Assembly (NCBI GenBank): GCA_035221665.1
Contig: CM069156.1
Span: 27,218,001-27,282,000 of the forward strand
Direction of reading: 5' to 3'
Source: Okamejei kenojei
Lineage: Eukaryota
DNA length: 64,000 bases
How positions within the stretch are numbered: the stretch's first letter is position 1; each line of letters begins with the position of its first letter. The position numbers and the translations under genes were made by a program. Under the pieces are notes generated by a model. It saw only the letters and a program-made list of their open reading frames with translations. It was not told where the DNA came from and made no database searches. Shown in pieces: positions 8,128-16,175 of the stretch.

Positions 8128-9735
8128 GATCAGTCACTGGGGGAAGGAGTGTCCGGGTGGGGGGGGGGGGGGGTGACTGGCAATCACCAAGGTGCGGAGT
8201 TAAGTAGGGTAACAGCCGCAGGGAAGAAACTGTTCCTGAACCTGCTGGTCCGGCAACGGAGAGACCTGTAGCGCCTCCCAGATGGGAGGAGGGTAAACAG
8301 TCTGTGGCTGGGGCGAGACCAGTCCTTGACGATGCTGCGCACCCTTCGCAGACATCGCTTGCTCTGGACAGACTCAATGGAGGGGAGTGAGGAACCGGTG
8401 ATGCGTTGGGCAGTTTTCGCCACCCTCTGCAGTGCTTTCCGGTCGGAGACAGAGCAGTTGCCTTACCATACTGTGGTACAGTTAGTAAGGATGCTCTCGA
8501 TGGCGCAGCGGTAGAAGTTCACCAGAATCTGAGGAGACTGATGGACCTTCTTTCGTCTCCTCAGGAAGAAGACATGCTGGTGAGCCTTCTTGATCAGTGT
8601 TGAGGTATTGTGGGTCCAAGAGAGGTCATCAGACATGTTGGCCCCCAGAAACCTGAAGCTGGAAACACGTTCCACCTCCGTCCTGTTAATATGATGGGGG
8701 TGTGCATGCCACTCCTAGACCTTCTGTAGTCCACAATGAGCTCCTTGGTCTTCTTGGTGTTAAGGGCCAGGTTGTTGTCAGCGCACCATGCTGCTAGGAG
8801 CTGGACCTCCTCCCTATAGGCTGACTCATCGTTGTCGCTGATGAGGCCAATCACCATTGTATCATCTGCATACTTGATGATGGTGTTAGTGCCATGTACA
8901 GGTGTGCAGTCGTAGGTGAAGAGGGAGTAGAGAGAGGGCTCAGCACACAGCCCTGTGGAACGCCGGTGTTCAGGGTAAGGATTGAAGAGGTGTGGTTGTC
9001 CAACCTAACAGACTGGGGTCTATTGGTTAGAAGTCCAGTATCCAGTTGCAGAGGGAGGGGTCGATGCCCAGGTCGATGAGTTTGGTGATCAGTTTTGAGG
9101 GGATAATGGTGTTAAATGCTGAGCTAAAGTCGATGAACAGCATTCTCACGTAGGTGTCTCTGTTGTTGAGATGGGAGAGGGTGGAGTGAAGTGCCGTGGA
9201 GATGGCATCCTCCGTACTCCTGTTCTTGTGGTAGGTGAACTGATAGGGGTCCAGTGTGGGAGGTAGGCAGCCTTTGAGGTGCGCCAGGACCAGCCTCTCG
9301 AAGCACTTGGTGATGATGGGAGTAAGTGCAACTGGGCGGAAGTCGTTGAGGATCGCCGCAGTGGAGTGTTTTGGCACCGGCACAATCAAGGTGGTTTTAA
9401 GGCACGTGGGGACAGCTGCTTGGGTAAGCGACAGGTTGAAGATGTCAGTCCATGCGTCTGTCAGCTGCGCAGCACAGGTCCTGAGGACGCGCCCGGGGAT
9501 GCCGTCAGGGCCAGCAGCCTTTCGTGCATTAATCCTGCTCAGTGCCACATACACGTCGATGGGGGTGAGTGTGAGGGGCTGGTGATCAGCAGGGAGCACA
9601 GCCTTGATGGCCACCTCTTGATTGTCCCTGTCAAAGCGGCCATAAAAGTGGTTAAGCTCCTCAAGGAAGGAGGCGTCGCTGGATGTGGGGGTGGTGTTGG
9701 TGGGTTTATAGTCCGTGATGGCCTGGATGCCTTGC
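7927..9735 (-). mobile_element. 5'-truncated Rex1/Babar-type LINE (RT region plus 3' UTR and microsatellite tail)
   Basis: ORF pieces [96 protein letters not shown]. Tail is (TCAGAT)x3.5 at 7927-7947. Several frameshifts. Confidence 0.92.
8085..8126 (+). repeat. Poly-G tract (42 G), with a second run of 15 G at 8159-8173, in the Rex1 3' UTR
   Basis: Read directly from the sequence. Confidence 0.9.
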
Positions 9736-9740
9736 ATCAA

Positions 9741-9855
9741 CCCACTGTCGCCGAAAATGTTTGTACATGTTGAAAATCCAGCGGCGACCAGAAAGACGCT
9801 ATGACTCTTTGGGCAACTGAGGAGGCTAAAATGTAGCCTAAGTAGGACAGGCCCT
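9741..9855. mobile_element. Right half of a PIF/Harbinger-type MITE
   Basis: Ends in agtaggacaggccct|taa, the same TIR end and TAA as the complete MITE at 34400-34706. The left arm is absent. Confidence 0.65.
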
Positions 9856-10204
9856 TAACTCTCTTTGTTACAGAAATCCCCACCCGATATGTGGATACTC
9901 TACTACTGCCCTCACCAACCTGCCAGCATCAATCCTCCATGAATGTCAACATCCATGAATTGCCCCTTGTACCAATGTATAAATATAAATAGTAAGTTTA
10001 AACGAGAACTTACCAGTTCGAAGTTTGATCCTTATTTTATGAGGAGTTACGATGAGGGATTTCGTGAAGACCCCGCCAGCACGCATGCGCGACAATTTTC
10101 AAAGCAGCTATGTGAAATCACAGATAGTAGAGTTGACTGAAGAGAGTAAGATAAGAGAGCTAACATACCAGTTGTCCTTATAATAGAGGGTTGGGAGCGG
10201 AGGG

Positions 10205-10317
10205 CACAAAATCCCTCATCGTAACTCCTCATAAAATAAGGATCAAACTTCGAACTGGTAAGTTCTTGTTTAATCTTACTTTTTTACTTCGGAGTCACGT
10301 GAGTGACTTAGTGAAGA
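10205..10317. repeat. DIRS internal complementary region (ICR)
   Basis: 10205-10280 is the reverse complement of 9991-10066 (76 bp, 3 mismatches). 10281-10317 is the reverse complement of 14735-14771 (37 bp, 2 mismatches). Confidence 0.95.
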
Positions 10318-10541
10318 TTTCAAAGCTCTGTGATTTCATGCCATGGAAACTGAGTCCATGCTCACACACTGCCATATTTAACCAATGGAGGAAGTATGTT
10401 AACATATTTCAGACTTGAAACAGAGCTGAAAAACAATTATGTATTTATTAACAACAAATAATAAAACCCTAACTTCGGGGAAATTAAGATACAGAACTTA
10501 AAATAGTATCTGCAAAAGTTGTAGGTGTGGTCACAGGTTTG

Positions 10542-11431
10542 TTAATAAAGCCGCTGAAAAGTTGACTCATTGGACCAACCCGCCGTTGCGAGGATGTGAT
10601 CCATGGGAACTTCCATCATCCTCGCCGCTGATGTAGACGCAACCCTGGTAGAATGAGATTTGAAAACGTCAGTGTCTACCCCTGCTGCACCTAACACCAC
10701 CCTGAGCCACCTTGAAATGGTCTGTACGGTTACCCTGTGGTGAGGGCGTTTAAAACTGATTAAAAGGCCCATTTCCGTACTCCTGAGATTTTTAGTGACC
10801 TCTAGGTAATGTCAAAGGTGGGTAGTTATACAAAGGCGTCTAATGGATAGGCCAGGAACTCCAATTTTAGGCCAGATGACCCACGTCTGTTATGTTTAAG
10901 TAACTCATTTATATAAAAGGTTACCTTATTTGGAGTCGATACCATGGTATCCAATTTTAATTTATGCAGGGTCTGGACCCACTGTGCAGTAACAAGTGCC
11001 ATCAGTTTGGTCAATGAGAGTGATGTGACTGGTGCCCAATCCCTTAGCAGGGACAAGACCAGTCCGATATCCCAGATGTGAGAATATCGAGGCCTGGGAG
11101 GATTAGAATTAAAAATACCCCTCATAAGTTTAGACACTAGGGGGTGGGATCCTACTCCAAGGTGTTCTAACCCAAGCCCGAGGTAGGACGATAAAGCACT
11201 CCTAGCGCAGTTGATGGGACTGTAACTGAGGCCCTCATCGTAATGAAGGCTTGCCAGGAATTCCAGTACGTCCGTAATGGTGGCAGAGTTGTATGTGGTG
11301 CCAGTCCTGGAACAAAATACCTCCCATTTTTTAACGTAGGTGAGGTATTGTCTCCTGGTGGACTCCCTGCACGACGCCGTGACGATGTTCATGGTTCTGT
11401 CCGTAAGGAGAGGTCTATTCAGAACCTGCAA
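10542..11431 (-). pseudogene. DIRS ORF3 tyrosine recombinase (split by a stop/frameshift near 10800-10830)
   Basis: SAM-like N-terminus STRRQYLTYVKKW...INCARSALSS...HPLVSKLMRGIFNSNPPRPRY..IWD. Catalytic C-terminus FKSHSTRVASTS...ILATAGWSNESTFQRLY. Confidence 0.9.
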
Positions 11432-13332
11432 GCCAACAGGTTTATGTAATCATGGCACAGATGATTTTCCCCTGTCACGGGATGTGCCAGGAGATTCGGG
11501 CGTTTGGGAATCGGGAGACATGGTTCTTTCACCATGTCGAGGACCACAGGGAACCATGGCTGCGTAGGCCAGTCGGGTACTATCAAAATCCCTGATGCGG
11601 AGTCTAATTGAATTTTCCGCAATACCCGACTGATGAGGCAGAAAGGAGGAAATGCATAGAAAAACAAATCCCGCCAATGTAGCGAGAAAGCGTCCATCGC
11701 TACTGCCCCGTGGTCTGGTTCCCATGCGACATATGTTGGTATCTGATCGTTAAGTCTAGATGCAAAAAGGTCGATATCTAGCGTTCCATACCAAGCTATA
11801 ATGTCGGTAAATACCTGGTGGTTCAACATCCATTCAGTGTTGTTATTGAATATGCGTGACCTGGTGTCCGCCACTGTGTTGAGCTTACCCGGAAGGTAGG
11901 TAGCTGATATCTAAATGTTTCTTTCTATGCACCAGTGCCAGATTGAATTTGCCAATTCATCACAAGATATCGACTTGATACCACCCATATGATTAATATA
12001 TGCCACCACTGTGGTGTTATCTATTTGTAGGCATGGTGCATATCTGTACAGTAGGCCCGCAGTCCATGAAACGCTCCCAACATTTCCAAATAATTAATAC
12101 CTTGTGTCCGAAGTAGAGTAGATTCGTGTGTATTCCATCTACCACCACAACTGGAGGTGGTATCGGTAGCTCCCCAGCCGTGAGCGCTGGCGTCAGTTTG
12201 TAACACAACCGAAGGGTTTGTGATTGTGATGGGATTAAAGCAATGTCGAATATTGCTAATCCACCATCGCAATTCGATTTTTGCTTTGGCCGGTAGCTGC
12301 ATAGGCCTGTCAAAATGACCAGCGTGAGATTTGAGTGCTGAAATTTTGGCTCTTTGTAAATTTTGGTAATGTAATGGTCCATATTGTGTGGATGGAAATG
12401 TAGCCACAAGTTTCCCGATTACCCTGGCAGCGTGCCGAATGGTTGGCGCAAACAAGGCTATTGCATGCCTCTATTAAGTCTGTCGCCTTGCTTTTTGGCA
12501 AGGTGACAGTCATATGAACAGAGTCGATTGTGAACCCCAGATAATCCATTATTACAGAAGGCATTAACTTGGATTTGTCTGGATGGATGATAAATCCCAG
12601 TTTTTGAAATAGAAGCTTGGTGGCTGTAACAGCCAATTTAGCCAGTTCCAAAGTTTTCTCCACAATTAGGATGTCATCAAGATATGCCATGACAAAGTGC
12701 TTTTGTTTCCGAAGATACGCCAATGCTGGTTTCAGTATTTTGGTAAATAGTCTGGGGGCTGTTGTTAGTCCATTAGGCAGTGCTTTATACTGCCATAGCT
12801 GCCCCATCCAGATAAATTTCAAATATCTGCGGTGATCTTCATGTGTGGGTAATGAATAGTATGCATCTTTTAGGTCGATGCAAGCCATGAAGTACCCTTT
12901 GGAAACTAGTTGTTTAGCAGTTACAAACATTTCCATTTTGAAGTGGGTATATTGCACAAAAGTATTGAGTTGTGTCAAGTCAATGATAATGCGGCATCCA
13001 CCATCTTTTTTGGTTTTAGTGAAGATGTTTGATACAAACTCAAGAGGTTCATGTTTAGTTTTCTCTATTACTCCCTTAGAATACGATCTAAGTAGTTCCG
13101 CATGACCTTCCACTTTCTCTTTTTGTGAAAGCACAAATTTCCAGCTAGGTACATGTTGAACTAGTAGGAGGAGTTTGTCAATGAATTCAATTTTGTATCC
13201 CTGAATACTGTGCAATATAAAGAGATCAGAAGTTATCGAACTCCATGCATCCCGAAACAAGTGTAATCTACCCCCTATTTGTGAAGTTACACATGCGATG
13301 TTCCCTAGGCAACCAGACCCACCTCCCTCCAT
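11419..13332 (-). pseudogene. DIRS ORF2: reverse transcriptase - RNase H - methyltransferase-like domain (frameshifted)
   Basis: RT motifs KKDGGCRIIIDL, IDLKDAYY, ALPNGLTTAPRLFTK, YLDDILI, DYLGFTID. RNase H motifs LQTDASAHGWG and INYLEMLG. MT-like motifs DIDLFASRLN, YAFPPF, WPTQPW. Frameshifts near 12450 and 12025 and a premature TAG near 11911. Confidence 0.92.
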
Positions 13333-13334
13333 GG

Positions 13335-14563
13335 TTACCGGTGGCGCTGGGTCGGCTTCCTCCGTCCTTGGCTCTCGGGAGGTAGAGGCGCTGTGGTGTG
13401 GGGTTGGCGCATCTTCCAGGAAGGCCGCTCTGGGACATAGCCTAAAAACGACCTTTGTGTGGGTTGTGCGGCCTTCGGTGTTTCACCCGCTGTCCTATCG
13501 CTATGGTAGCAGGGCCAGTTGGTGGTTGCATAGGGGTGCTGCTGCCGGCTGACTGTTGACCTGATGGTAGTCGGTGCCTTGATCATGCCCACCGCTTTTG
13601 CTTCTTCATCAAGGTCTTTAACCTGCTTTGGCAGGTTGTCCCCGAACAGCAGAGTAGGCGGCGGTGTGCTGCTAGTTTTACACAACCCTGCGAATTTTGG
13701 GTTAAGCGTAGGCCGGATCGCACTTTTTCTGAAGCAGTTAATTTTGAATTGGACATTGCAGAGTAGTGCTAAAGCGTCCTGTTGCTCATCCGTCATGTTG
13801 TTGCCATCTATAGATCTGGCAAATGCAGTAATTCCCGCAGCTAGCAGTTTTAATATCTTCTGCATCTTGACCTCTTGGGCCCTGATGCTGGGACTAATGT
13901 TCCCCCAGATGGGGTTGTTGACTGCCGGTACATTGAGAGACACGCAGTTCTCTGGAGCAAGGTATTTGGCCGTGGTATCATTGATAACTTGCTCCTGCAG
14001 TTGGTGCATCGTTAGATAATTAATGCTCGCCGCCAGCTGCGGTTGTAACGGCTGTCCCTTCTGGGATGGTGTTGTGAATTTCGATACCTTTCGCAGGAGC
14101 TCGACTTCCTGCACCCCTAGCACGTTGGGTTCTTCAGCCAACCCCTCTTCAGAATCAGCCCTGACTCCTAATGCTCCCCTGCGAAGAGGGTGAGACATTG
14201 GGCAGCCCTGAAAAGGGTACTGCCGTGGGTCTGCGAAGAGACCCACGGTGACCAGACTCCTGCTGGAATAGGTCATGTTGGAGCAGTTGCTCCGCCATCC
14301 GCTCCATGCGGGATAATCGACCGCCATCGCTACCCACGTACGGCAGGTCGTCATGCCAGGAATCAGCCGAGTCAACGGGGCTGCCCGACTTCCGGGTGGC
14401 TTTGCCGCCAGTCCGCGGTGCTCCTCCGGACTGTAGCGGCAGGAAGTCGGGGGCTGCCGTATGCTCAACGGCCAGCTCGGGCATCGTCGGCCGCTGTTTA
14501 TTGTCCGCGGTCCTCCGCAGTCTGTCGGGAAGCAGCCCGTTTCTTTCCTCGAGTTTTTTCCAT
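13335..14563 (-). pseudogene. DIRS ORF1, gag-like protein (N-terminal part disrupted)
   Basis: C-terminal block KYLAPENCVSLNVPAVNNPIW...DALALLCNVQFKINCFRKSAIRPTLNPKFAGLC...LLFGDNLPKQVKDL is typical of DIRS gag. The likely start gcgATGG at 14563 (MEKTRGKKRAASR) is followed by stops or frameshifts. Confidence 0.8.
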
Positions 14564-14787
14564 CGCTCGATGTAGTGGGTACTCTGGAATACAAATAGGA
14601 AAGCAGAGTGCCCTAACTACTGTAGGTTAGCGGTACTTACCTGAGGGATCCCTTTTTTAAACTGGCCGGTAGAGGAGCAACGCTCCTCCCAGCCTGTCGC
14701 TGTGCAATGCGTTCGACGATATGTGCTGGCGAGGTCTTCACGAAGTCACTCACGTGACTCCGAAGTAAAATTATACACTGTAAATAC

Positions 14788-14950
14788 TGCTCTGGCAGCT
14801 CGTTCCATATACCCACCACCCTCTGTATGAAAACATTGCTCTCAGGCTCCCATTAAATCTTTTCACTCCCACCGTAAACCTATCTCCTCTAGTTCTTGAT
14901 TTCCCTGCGCTCCAGGTAAAAAAACTCTGTTCATTCACCCTCAACACCTC
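14788..14950 (-). mobile_element. CR1-type LINE fragment
   Basis: Minus-strand translation includes SRTRGDRFTVGVKRFNGSLR and VGIWNELP. Confidence 0.8.
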
Positions 14951-15396
14951 AAGTTTAATACTATTTTTGTATTTAATTTTCTCCACATTTCTTACCTAAG
15001 ATGCCCTTTATCTTTCACATCTTCTGAACGATATATCAGCATTCATTCCCCGAAGTACTTCACAACCATTTACTGCAGATAGATAGGAAAGTGAGGATGA
15101 TCTTGTACACAGCAAGTTCCACTGAGAGCAATATAATATTGTTTTTGGTGATTTTGGTTGGGGGATAAATGTTCCACTGGGCACTTCGGAGAACTCATTA
15201 GCTTTCAAAAAAAATGAGATTTTTACAACTATGCAATAGGGCAAATAGGATTTCTGGTTACTGTTTCATCTGAAACCTCAGACATAAAATGTCAACACAG
15301 AATGGATTCCATTTGCTAAAATATCCTTGGAAATTTGACGAAAAATTCTTATGTTCAGGTGAATCATTGACAAAGATGTTTCATCAACATCTTAGC

Positions 15397-16175
15397 GGCA
15401 CTGTGGCGCAGCTGGTAGAGCTGCTGCCCACAGCTCAAAAGATCCACATTAGATCCTGACCTCTGGTGCCATCTCTGTGGAGTTTGTACTTTCTCCCTGT
15501 GACCATTTAGGTTACTTTCGGGTGTTCCGGTTGTCTCCCACATCCCAAAGATGTGAGGATTTTTTTGATAATTGGCCTCTGTAAAATTGCCCTTAATATG
15601 TAGGGAGTAGATGATAAAGTGGGATAAGATGGAAAGAAGATGATGCCAGGACCTGAGGGGCTGAACTGGAGGGAGAGGTTAAGCAGGCTAGGAATTTATT
15701 CCTTGGAGCACTGGAGACTGAGGGAGTATCTTATAGAGATATATAAAATAATGAGGGCAACAGAGAGAGTGAACAGAGGGCACAGTTTTTTCCCGAGAGC
15801 GCAGGGGAATCAAGAACTAGAGGAGAGGTTTGTGAGAATGGAAAGATTTAACAGGAGCCTGAGAGCAACTTTTTAATACAGAGGGTGTTGGGTAGATGGA
15901 AAGAGCTGCCAGATGAGGTACTTTAGGCAGGTAGTATAACAACATTTAAAAGATATTTGGACAGGTACATGGATAGGAAAGGTTTAGAAGGATATGGGCT
16001 AAACCCAGGCAGGTGGGACTAGCGTAAATGGGGCATCTTGGTCGGCACGGGAAATTTGGGCCAAAGGCCCTGTTTCCATGTTTTATGACTGTATCACAGT
16101 ATCAATGGTCGGCATGGACTCGATGGGCCAAAGGGCCTGTTTCCATGCTGCATCTTTGAAATTAAACTAAAACTG
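15397..16175 (+). mobile_element. HE1 V-SINE (15397-15630 and 16100-16175) interrupted by a CR1 3' fragment (~15633-16095)
   Basis: SINE head and core, then MMPGPEGLNWRERLSRLGIYSLE..RLR..LIEIYKIM (CR1) with its tail, then the SINE tail resumes at atggtcggcatggactcg. Confidence 0.85.

What the first reader, a model, noticed from the sequence alone, without database searches (positions are those of the whole stretch)
9987..14771. Complete DIRS retrotransposon whose replication and integration logic can be read from the sequence (ICR = circle junction, AAAT crossover core)
Seen: the ICR is a fusion of the reverse complements of both ends. 10205-10280 mirrors 9991-10066, and 10281-10317 mirrors 14735-14771. 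Its seam (cttact|tttttacttc) equals the predicted circle junction cttact-ATTT-tacttc with one substitution. The same 4-mer (AAAT on +) bounds the element at 9987-9990 and 14768-14771. The shared ITR core is only 22 bp, with long non-shared terminal extensions. Established: DIRS1-group elements use the ICR to build a circular cDNA, which the tyrosine recombinase integrates without a true TSD. Inference: this copy integrated by recombination between the circle junction and a genomic AAAT/ATTT site, and may represent an uncatalogued elasmobranch DIRS family with very short ITRs.
Basis: partly seen in the sequence, partly recalled or inferred. Interest (0 to 1): 0.7.

Follow-up and report, generated by a model that had tools for sequence, protein, structure and literature searches.

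The report
DIRS retrotransposon with integron-like crossover
This is a decayed copy of a known kind of jumping gene, but its thousands of sister copies show that insertion swaps DNA at one fixed point inside a three-letter site, which likely means the element integrates as folded single-stranded DNA, as bacterial integrons do.

Summary
The structure is real. It is a full-length, coding-decayed DIRS1-like retrotransposon (minus strand, 9988-14771) whose ICR mirrors both ends, in a group of at least 15,700 related copies. Two details are wrong. The core is the known 3-bp ATT, not AAAT; the fourth base is chance flank. The 22-bp ITR reflects a private deletion: sister copies have about 34 bp, like published molluscan DIRS.

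New here are genome-wide counts against the ICR seam as mutation control. Core base 1 is host-derived at 5' ends (5.2% variant vs 1.0%), and bases 2-3 are host-derived at 3' ends (5.1% and 3.4% vs 1.1% and 0.7%). So the crossover is A^TT (antisense AA^T), with almost no heteroduplex sharing: the integron AA^C geometry. The ICR seam was not seen used as donor site (0 of 24 candidates), yet it is a target hotspot (at least 11 nested insertions, about 1 expected).

Best reading, inferred: a folded single-stranded cDNA is joined by one strand exchange and resolved by replication. This scan noted the family before in this genome, and an AA|T crossover for Ngaro elements elsewhere.

The parts
9988..14771 (-). 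DIRS1-like retrotransposon copy, 4,784 bp counting ATT at both ends; strictly element-derived 9990-14770 under the A^TT crossover
   Evidence: crossover
14769..14771 (-). 5' core ATT: A (14771) from the host target, TT from the element
   Evidence: sequence; polarity from copy counts
14735..14768 (-). 5' terminus mirrored by the left ICR; right arm of the junction; includes a 6-bp hairpin at 14744-14759
14723..14744 (-). conserved part of the 5' ITR, shortened in this copy by a private deletion of about 11 bp
13335..14612 (-). ORF1, 425 codons stop to stop, gag by position; no Pfam hit
11422..13296 (-). pol: RT (RVT_1, E 2.5e-19, YLDD), RNase H-like stretch, methyltransferase-like stretch (Dam, E 0.005, below cut-off); frameshifts near 12450 and 12028, stop near 11911
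10542..11449 (-). tyrosine recombinase: SAM-like N-terminal domain (E 3.5e-7) and catalytic part with HSTR motif (E 4.9e-4), in two frames
10284..10317 (-). left ICR, complementary to the 5' terminus
10281..10283 (-). ICR seam core; TTT on + in this copy, ATT in nearly all others
10205..10280 (-). right ICR, complementary to the 3' terminus
10061..10094 (-). conserved part of the 3' ITR, about 34 bp
9991..10066 (-). 3' terminus (divergent ITR plus about 46-bp right extension) mirrored by the right ICR; left arm of the junction
9988..9990 (-). 3' core ATT: A (9990) from the element, TT (9988-9989) from the host target
   Evidence: sequence; polarity from copy counts

Best explanation
This is a coding-decayed copy of a high-copy DIRS1-like retrotransposon whose copies recombine with host ATT sites at one point, A^TT, and which likely integrates as a folded single-stranded antisense cDNA through a single strand exchange that replication would resolve. 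Steps: (1) The RNA is reverse-transcribed to antisense cDNA and the missing ends are copied from the ICR. This is the published model; the ICR is shown essential in PMC7192593; here it is supported by end-ICR identity and two overshoot copies. (2) The joined ends pair with the ICR on the same strand, forming a duplex of about 115 bp, a dumbbell-shaped att site. This is predicted from the sequence. (3) The YR cuts the antisense strand at 5'-AA^T-3' in donor and target. The crossover point is shown by copy counts; the strand is inferred. (4) The recombinase prefers targets whose right arm resembles the element's own, which makes ICR seams and ends of older copies hotspots. This is shown by counts. 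(5) Lack of homology left of the cut blocks a second exchange, and replication copies the inserted strand. This is inferred by analogy with integrons and phage CTX. Identity as DIRS1-like and the A^TT point are about 0.95 sure; the stated confidence is for the whole mechanism.
For: Variant rates at core positions 1/2/3. ICR seam, as mutation control: 153/180/103 of 15,733. 5' ends: 170/53/20 of 3,277. 3' ends: 157/547/372 of 10,817. The share of the excess variation at the 3' end is 0.10, 0.89 and 1.02; 5' vs 3' p is 4.6e-30, 7.1e-21 and 4.3e-23. A shared heteroduplex would give 0.5. Trimming from the host side does not explain it: at 3' ends the inner base 2 varies more than the outer base 3; only 11 of 88 readable base-3 variants also vary at base 2 (by eye); about 74 of 100 listed 5' base-1 variants are G (by eye). 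L037 has 5' G where its host repeat has G. There is no element-derived patch left of 5' cores (T at -1 only 22%, n=58). The ICR seam was not seen as donor: 0 of 24 ICR-arm/host ends are permuted integrants, and about 1 of 100 listed left-ICR arms has a host-like neighbour (by eye). Yet it is a good target: 31 element-arm/5'-end joints, 15 at ICR seams, at least 11 with both nested joints, and 16 head-to-tail tandems, against 0.8-1.3 and at most 1.5-2.7 expected. The inner copy is younger in 7 of 7 nests. TTAC plus a non-T follows 355 of about 17,500 3' cores, about six times a base-composition estimate. The junction strand folds on the ICR in silico. Literature: integrons recombine between A and C of bottom-strand AAC on a folded single strand (PMC5027507, passages), with one exchange and replicative resolution (PMC3458562, abstract). 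DIRS-1 cDNA is antisense and single-stranded and can integrate (PMC7192593, abstract, introduction, discussion).
Against: No intermediate was observed, and the cut strand is not visible in genomic products. A double-stranded circle with one exchange, or with strand-biased repair plus accessory sites beyond the 37-bp shared arm, predicts the same products. Small excesses remain on the 'wrong' ends: 5' base 2 is 1.6 vs 1.1% (p 0.03) and 3' base 1 is 1.45 vs 0.97% (p 5e-4). Of 7 copies with both ends read and a non-canonical core, 2 go against the polarity (L034, and L035 with its duplicate L065). The 5' set is one subgroup while the 3' and ICR sets span subfamilies. Duplicated loci inflate the counts slightly. 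The predicted stem has no extrahelical bases like those of attC. About 2-3% of copies have the ICR-to-end segment inverted, which the model does not explain. PMC7192593 itself keeps the double-stranded circle model. The hotspot expectation assumes equal use of all ATT sites.
Confidence: 0.5

Rival explanations
1. A double-stranded circle integrates, but only one strand's crossover is inherited (single exchange or strand-biased repair), and accessory sequences in the ITR tell the junction from the ICR seam.
For: It fits the A^TT polarity equally well. The ITR beyond the shared arm holds conserved palindromes that could be accessory sites. The double-stranded circle is the standing model (PMC7192593, introduction).
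Against: It needs two extra assumptions. The ICR seam in double-stranded chromosome DNA is a strongly preferred target, so the YR accepts it without the ITR context, yet it was not seen as donor. No double-stranded circle or junction product was detected in PMC7192593.
Confidence: 0.27
2. [quoted passage not shown]
For: ATT flanks both ends and sits once in the ICR seam. Empty sites rejoin at one triplet. It is the published model (PMC3266345, background).
Against: Mismatches in a shared overlap should appear at both ends alike, but they are 89-100% one-sided. The fourth base is free. Two identical att sites should give permuted integrants, and none was found in 24 candidates.
Confidence: 0.1
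3. A linear folded cDNA with abutting but unligated ends is inserted: the YR cuts only the target and host repair seals the second joint.
For: The cDNA is mostly linear and the junction was not amplifiable (PMC7192593). A nick at the junction would also give one crossover point.
Against: Joints are base-perfect at both ends in nearly all copies. Two overshoot copies (L217, L222) suggest that the cDNA ends are not fixed at the core. YR chemistry normally activates both partners (recalled).
Confidence: 0.1

Closest known systems
DIRS1-like retrotransposons, short-ITR type: AcaDIRS1/2 (Aplysia), LgDIRS1/3 (Lottia) (PMC3266345, section 10 and Table 3 read)
   Same: ATT at both ends and AAT junction; conserved ITR 31-36 bp (here about 34); right extension 48-49 bp (here about 46); ICR halves 39-45 and 86-88 bp (here about 37-40 and 76-79); gag, RT/RH/MT, YR order; YLDD and HSTR motifs.
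   Different: Different host and a far larger copy number (at least 15,733 exact ICR arms). The crossover point and one-sided inheritance are not given in the parts of that paper read. The nearest named RT relatives are only 40-44% identical (Paramuricea, Mytilus).
Dictyostelium DIRS-1 (PMC7192593; abstract, introduction, discussion read)
   Same: ICR complementary to both ends; tendency to insert into older copies; antisense single-stranded cDNA fits the strand inferred here.
   Different: ITRs of about 300 bp and a TTA junction. YR specificity is untested there. Here the insertion into older copies is mapped to the ICR seam and the termini.
Vertebrate DIRS of fish and Xenopus (PMC3266345 Table 3; PMC9210276 passages)
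   Same: Same superfamily and NTT-type ends.
   Different: GTT or TTT ends, ITRs of 100-150 bp and a LAP2alpha gag domain. This family has ATT ends, short ITRs and no Pfam hit in ORF1.
Integron IntI attC x attI recombination and phage CTX integration (PMC5027507 and PMC4792948 passages; PMC3458562 abstract)
   Same: Tyrosine recombinase; crossover in a conserved triplet at the same register (bottom-strand AA^C vs AA^T, with G tolerated at about 4% of targets here); a folded single strand as candidate substrate.
   Different: Bacterial, with no RT. attC has extrahelical bases and IntI an I2 helix. The DIRS stem is a long perfect duplex, closer to the CTX stem. A single exchange is proven there and only inferred here.

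Membership tests
DIRS1-like | Reverse transcriptase | tested here: met
   RVT_1 E 2.5e-19, YLDD
DIRS1-like | RNase H after RT | tested here: inconclusive
   No Pfam hit on the broken fragment. The region aligns at 46-55% with longer RT homologues, and another homologue, P0017, carries RT_RNaseH.
DIRS1-like | Methyltransferase domain | tested here: inconclusive
   Dam PF05869, E 0.005, below the curated cut-off, at the expected place
DIRS1-like | Tyrosine recombinase instead of integrase | tested here: met
   Phage_int_SAM_4 E 3.5e-7, Phage_integrase E 4.9e-4, HSTR motif
DIRS1-like | gag-like ORF1 | tested here: inconclusive
   425-codon ORF at the 5' end, no Pfam hit
DIRS1-like | Non-identical inverted terminal repeats with a right extension | tested here: met
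   (20 copies with both ends)
DIRS1-like | ICR complementary to both termini, overlapping on a 3-bp junction | tested here: met
DIRS1-like | Same trinucleotide at both ends, no target duplication | tested here: met
   Rejoined flanks match paralogues for L046, L054 and L037 (23 sites tried, 16 without any spanning paralogue, this window's site among them).
Ngaro / PAT | Split direct repeats | tested here: not met
   Terminal repeats are inverted; no direct repeat over 24 nt in 9000-16000
Integron-type ssDNA recombination (works-like) | Crossover inside a conserved triplet, two bases from its end | tested here: met
   A^TT from one-sided variant counts
Integron-type ssDNA recombination (works-like) | Folded single strand can form the att duplex | tested here: inconclusive
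   It folds in silico, as any such inverted repeat would. This is no evidence that it is the substrate.
Integron-type ssDNA recombination (works-like) | Single strand exchange with replicative resolution | not testable with these tools
   Compatible product statistics only
Integron (membership) | attC with extrahelical bases | tested here: not met
   The junction/ICR stem is a plain duplex apart from post-insertion mutations
Integron (membership) | IntI-specific I2 helix | not tested
   No structure or alignment to IntI was run
Catalogued Repbase/Dfam family | Close match to a library entry | not testable with these tools
   Neither library is held

The most novel reading that the evidence does not exclude
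DIRS retrotransposons are eukaryotic single-strand recombination systems. The ICR is not only the template that restores the ends but also the partner strand of a folded att site. The YR makes one integron-style AA^T exchange on the antisense cDNA, replication finishes the insertion, and no double-stranded circle is needed.
Probability: 0.45. Interest if true: 0.75.

Novelty: new member of a known kind. Interest (0 to 1): 0.45.

Why it matters
How DIRS recombinases integrate has rested on a 1985 model. PMC7192593 states that YR specificity is untested and found no double-stranded circle. This very large family gives a base-level crossover point, a target-arm preference and a donor/target asymmetry of the ICR. 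These turn the question into precise bench predictions: which strand, which phosphate, one exchange or two. If the single-strand reading holds, a recombination logic known from bacterial integrons and phage CTX also drives an order of animal retrotransposons. The window's copy itself is an ordinary dead member.

Tried and rejected
4-bp AAAT core: rejected. Very short ITR as a family novelty: rejected. Empty site of this very copy: not obtained. The left flank is single-copy, no paralogue spans it in local loci, and no sequencing run was listed (no evidence either way), so no reads were laid. Inversion between the 5' end and the left ICR as the source of ICR/5'-end joints: rejected for the 11 of 15 with both nested joints; 4 are incomplete and undecided. 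Dimer circles as the source of tandems: partners are 79-89% identical at the 3' end in 8 of 9 pairs, one pair 96.5%, so they are mostly sequential insertions. The upstream partner is younger in 5 of 7 datable pairs, with 1 tie and 1 reversed, too few to decide which end is targeted. Host-side trimming as the cause of one-sided variants: rejected (see evidence). Literature on DIRS in cartilaginous fish: nothing specific. The Poulter and Butler 2015 review is not held; PMC6681497 had nothing on junctions. No phylogeny, structure prediction or host identification was attempted.
Full report
Observation. The mirrors are as described: 73 of 76 and 35 of 37 bases. On the minus strand lie a 425-codon ORF1 without Pfam hit, an RT (E 2.5e-19), a weak Dam-like stretch and a tyrosine recombinase in two frames. 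Alignment to longer homologues places frameshifts near 12450 and 12028 and a stop near 11911, so the copy is full-length but coding-dead. Its ICR and termini differ at 5 of 113 bases; it is not among the youngest copies.

Family. The 3' region hits many copies at 94-95%. Exact-pattern counts give 25,611 matches to a 24-base terminal motif, 15,733 right-ICR arms and 10,817 3' ends under a condition that passes roughly 60%. I took 39 copies with 7.5 kb each. Many carry internal deletions, and lengths with both ends run from 3.5 to 6.7 kb. The seam reads ATT in nearly all, 3' ends are ATT plus a free base, and 5' ends are ATT plus the element's TTACTT. Among 65 local 3' ends the next base is T in only 38%. 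The core is therefore 3 bp, the commonest DIRS1 junction in Piednoel et al. (PMC3266345, passages and section 10 read). That table also lists molluscan elements with 31-36 bp conserved ITRs and 48-49 bp right extensions, the anatomy seen here. The 22-bp ITR of this copy comes from a private deletion of about 11 bp. Flanks were rejoined for 23 sites; 16 had no spanning paralogue, including this window's. L046 and L054 rejoin at a single ATT, and L037 keeps at its 5' end the G of its host repeat. L035/L065, L038 and L069 are too diverged or repetitive to judge.

Crossover point. I counted non-consensus bases at each core position genome-wide, with the ICR seam as mutation control. ICR: 153, 180, 103 of 15,733. 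5' ends of one subgroup: 170, 53, 20 of 3,277. 3' ends: 157, 547, 372 of 10,817. The excess over the control lies 90% at the 5' end for base 1, and 89% and 100% at the 3' end for bases 2 and 3. So the A is the host's at the 5' end and the TT the host's at the 3' end: one crossover, A^TT, which is AA^T on the antisense strand. Trimming is excluded because inner base 2 varies more than outer base 3, most variants are single (11 of 88 readable base-3 variants are double, by eye), and base-1 variants are about 74% G (by eye). Left of the core, 5' flanks show no element-derived patch. Against: small residual excesses on the other ends (p 0.03 and 5e-4), 2 of 7 paired non-canonical copies with the opposite pattern, unequal subfamily make-up of the sets, and some duplicated loci.

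The ICR as donor and as target. A double-stranded circle holds two identical sites, junction and ICR seam, and should give permuted integrants. Of 301 right-ICR arms followed by a non-T, 30 were examined: 6 mutated ICRs, 19 copies with the ICR-to-end segment inverted (two are duplicates), 2 fold-backs, 2 mini-elements, 1 unclear, and no permuted integrant. Of 690 left-ICR arms with a changed neighbour, about 1 of the 100 listed looks host-joined (by eye). As a target the seam is favoured. There are 31 joints of an element arm to a 5' end: 15 at ICR seams, of which 11 show both nested joints, and 16 head-to-tail tandems. Expectations under equal use of all ATT are 0.8-1.3 and at most 1.5-2.7. 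In 7 of 7 fully visible nests the inner copy has fewer ICR-end mismatches. Tandem partners are mostly different subfamilies. Ordinary targets also resemble the element's right arm: TTAC plus non-T follows 355 of about 17,500 3' cores (denominator estimated).

Mechanism. Malicki et al. (PMC7192593; abstract, introduction, first part of the discussion and section 29 read) show that the ICR is essential, and that DIRS-1 cDNA is antisense, single-stranded and able to integrate. They could not amplify a junction and call YR specificity untested, but they keep the double-stranded circle model. Integrons recombine between A and C of bottom-strand AAC on a folded strand (PMC5027507, passages), with one exchange and replicative resolution (PMC3458562, abstract only). 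CTX uses a stem that mimics duplex DNA (PMC4792948, passages). On the antisense strand the DIRS junction pairs with the ICR over about 115 bp. One exchange at AA^T on that strand accounts for the one-sided variants, for the purine-only tolerance at the single base 3' of the cut, for the preference on the arm 5' of the cut, and for the ICR never being the donor. The crossover point and hotspots are shown; the strand, the single-stranded substrate and replicative resolution are inferred. A double-stranded circle with biased inheritance and accessory sites remains a real rival.

Novelty. The element is a new member of a known superfamily; Repbase and Dfam could not be checked, and the host lineage was not tested. 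Searches of the held library for DIRS with integron, circular junction, strand exchange and target preference (listings, plus the papers named above) found no statement of the crossover point or of a single-strand exchange. The main DIRS papers by Cappello, Goodwin and Poulter are not held and were not seen, and no supplements were read, so an earlier statement cannot be excluded. PMC9210276 (passages) and PMC6817897 (passages) served for comparison only. Earlier scan notes, consulted after my reading was formed (note), record this family, its 3-bp rule and one tandem in this genome, and an AA|T crossover with an integron analogy for Ngaro elements elsewhere. They are leads, not support.

Verdict. 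The feature is real and the copy is ordinary. Interest 0.45 rests on the family-wide crossover and ICR results, which make the open integration mechanism directly testable.

Noticed in passing
window 9027-9854 (-): Fragment of a LINE-type reverse transcriptase (RVT_1, E 9.8e-13) ending about 130 bp from the DIRS 3' end; unrelated to it.
   Followed up: no
window 14791-14923 and 15786-15913: Two copies of an interspersed repeat end in opposite orientation (87-90%) just outside the 5' end.
   Followed up: no
L200, L202, L204, L205, L208-L216, L219, L223-L226, L229: Copies in which the segment between ICR seam and 3' end is inverted while the body stays forward; roughly 2-3% of copies by extrapolation, in several subfamilies; origin unexplained.
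   Followed up: partly
L217, L222 around 1460-1581: Fold-back copies whose 3' end carries ICR-side flank, as if copying from the ICR overshot; direct trace of ICR templating.
   Followed up: partly
L203, L218 around 1328-1581: Mini-elements of about 250 bp (5' end, ITR, inverted spacer, ICR arm) between host ATT sites; possible non-autonomous DIRS derivatives.
   Followed up: partly
L118/L119, G000:C1:3006911-3007193: Unit of about 290 bp with a 3'-type arm at both ends, each followed by ATT and host DNA.
   Followed up: no
L148/L171, G000:C13 near 43942540-43947000: Apparent multi-level nesting: a copy's 3' end at one ICR seam and another copy inserted at its own seam.
   Followed up: partly
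G000:C2:146865703-146865755: A further element-arm/5'-end joint with one extra T, missed by the pattern and not counted.
   Followed up: no
window 14744-14759 and 10006-10019: Small hairpins inside both termini (6-bp and 5-bp stems, 4-nt loops), kept in other copies; possible priming or binding signals.
   Followed up: no
ICR seams genome-wide: The base just before the core is often changed to C or A in ICRs (about half of 100 listed); the rate was not measured against a denominator.
   Followed up: no
L035/L065 and L214/L215: Same insertion with the same flanks at two places: segmental or tandem duplications after insertion.
   Followed up: no
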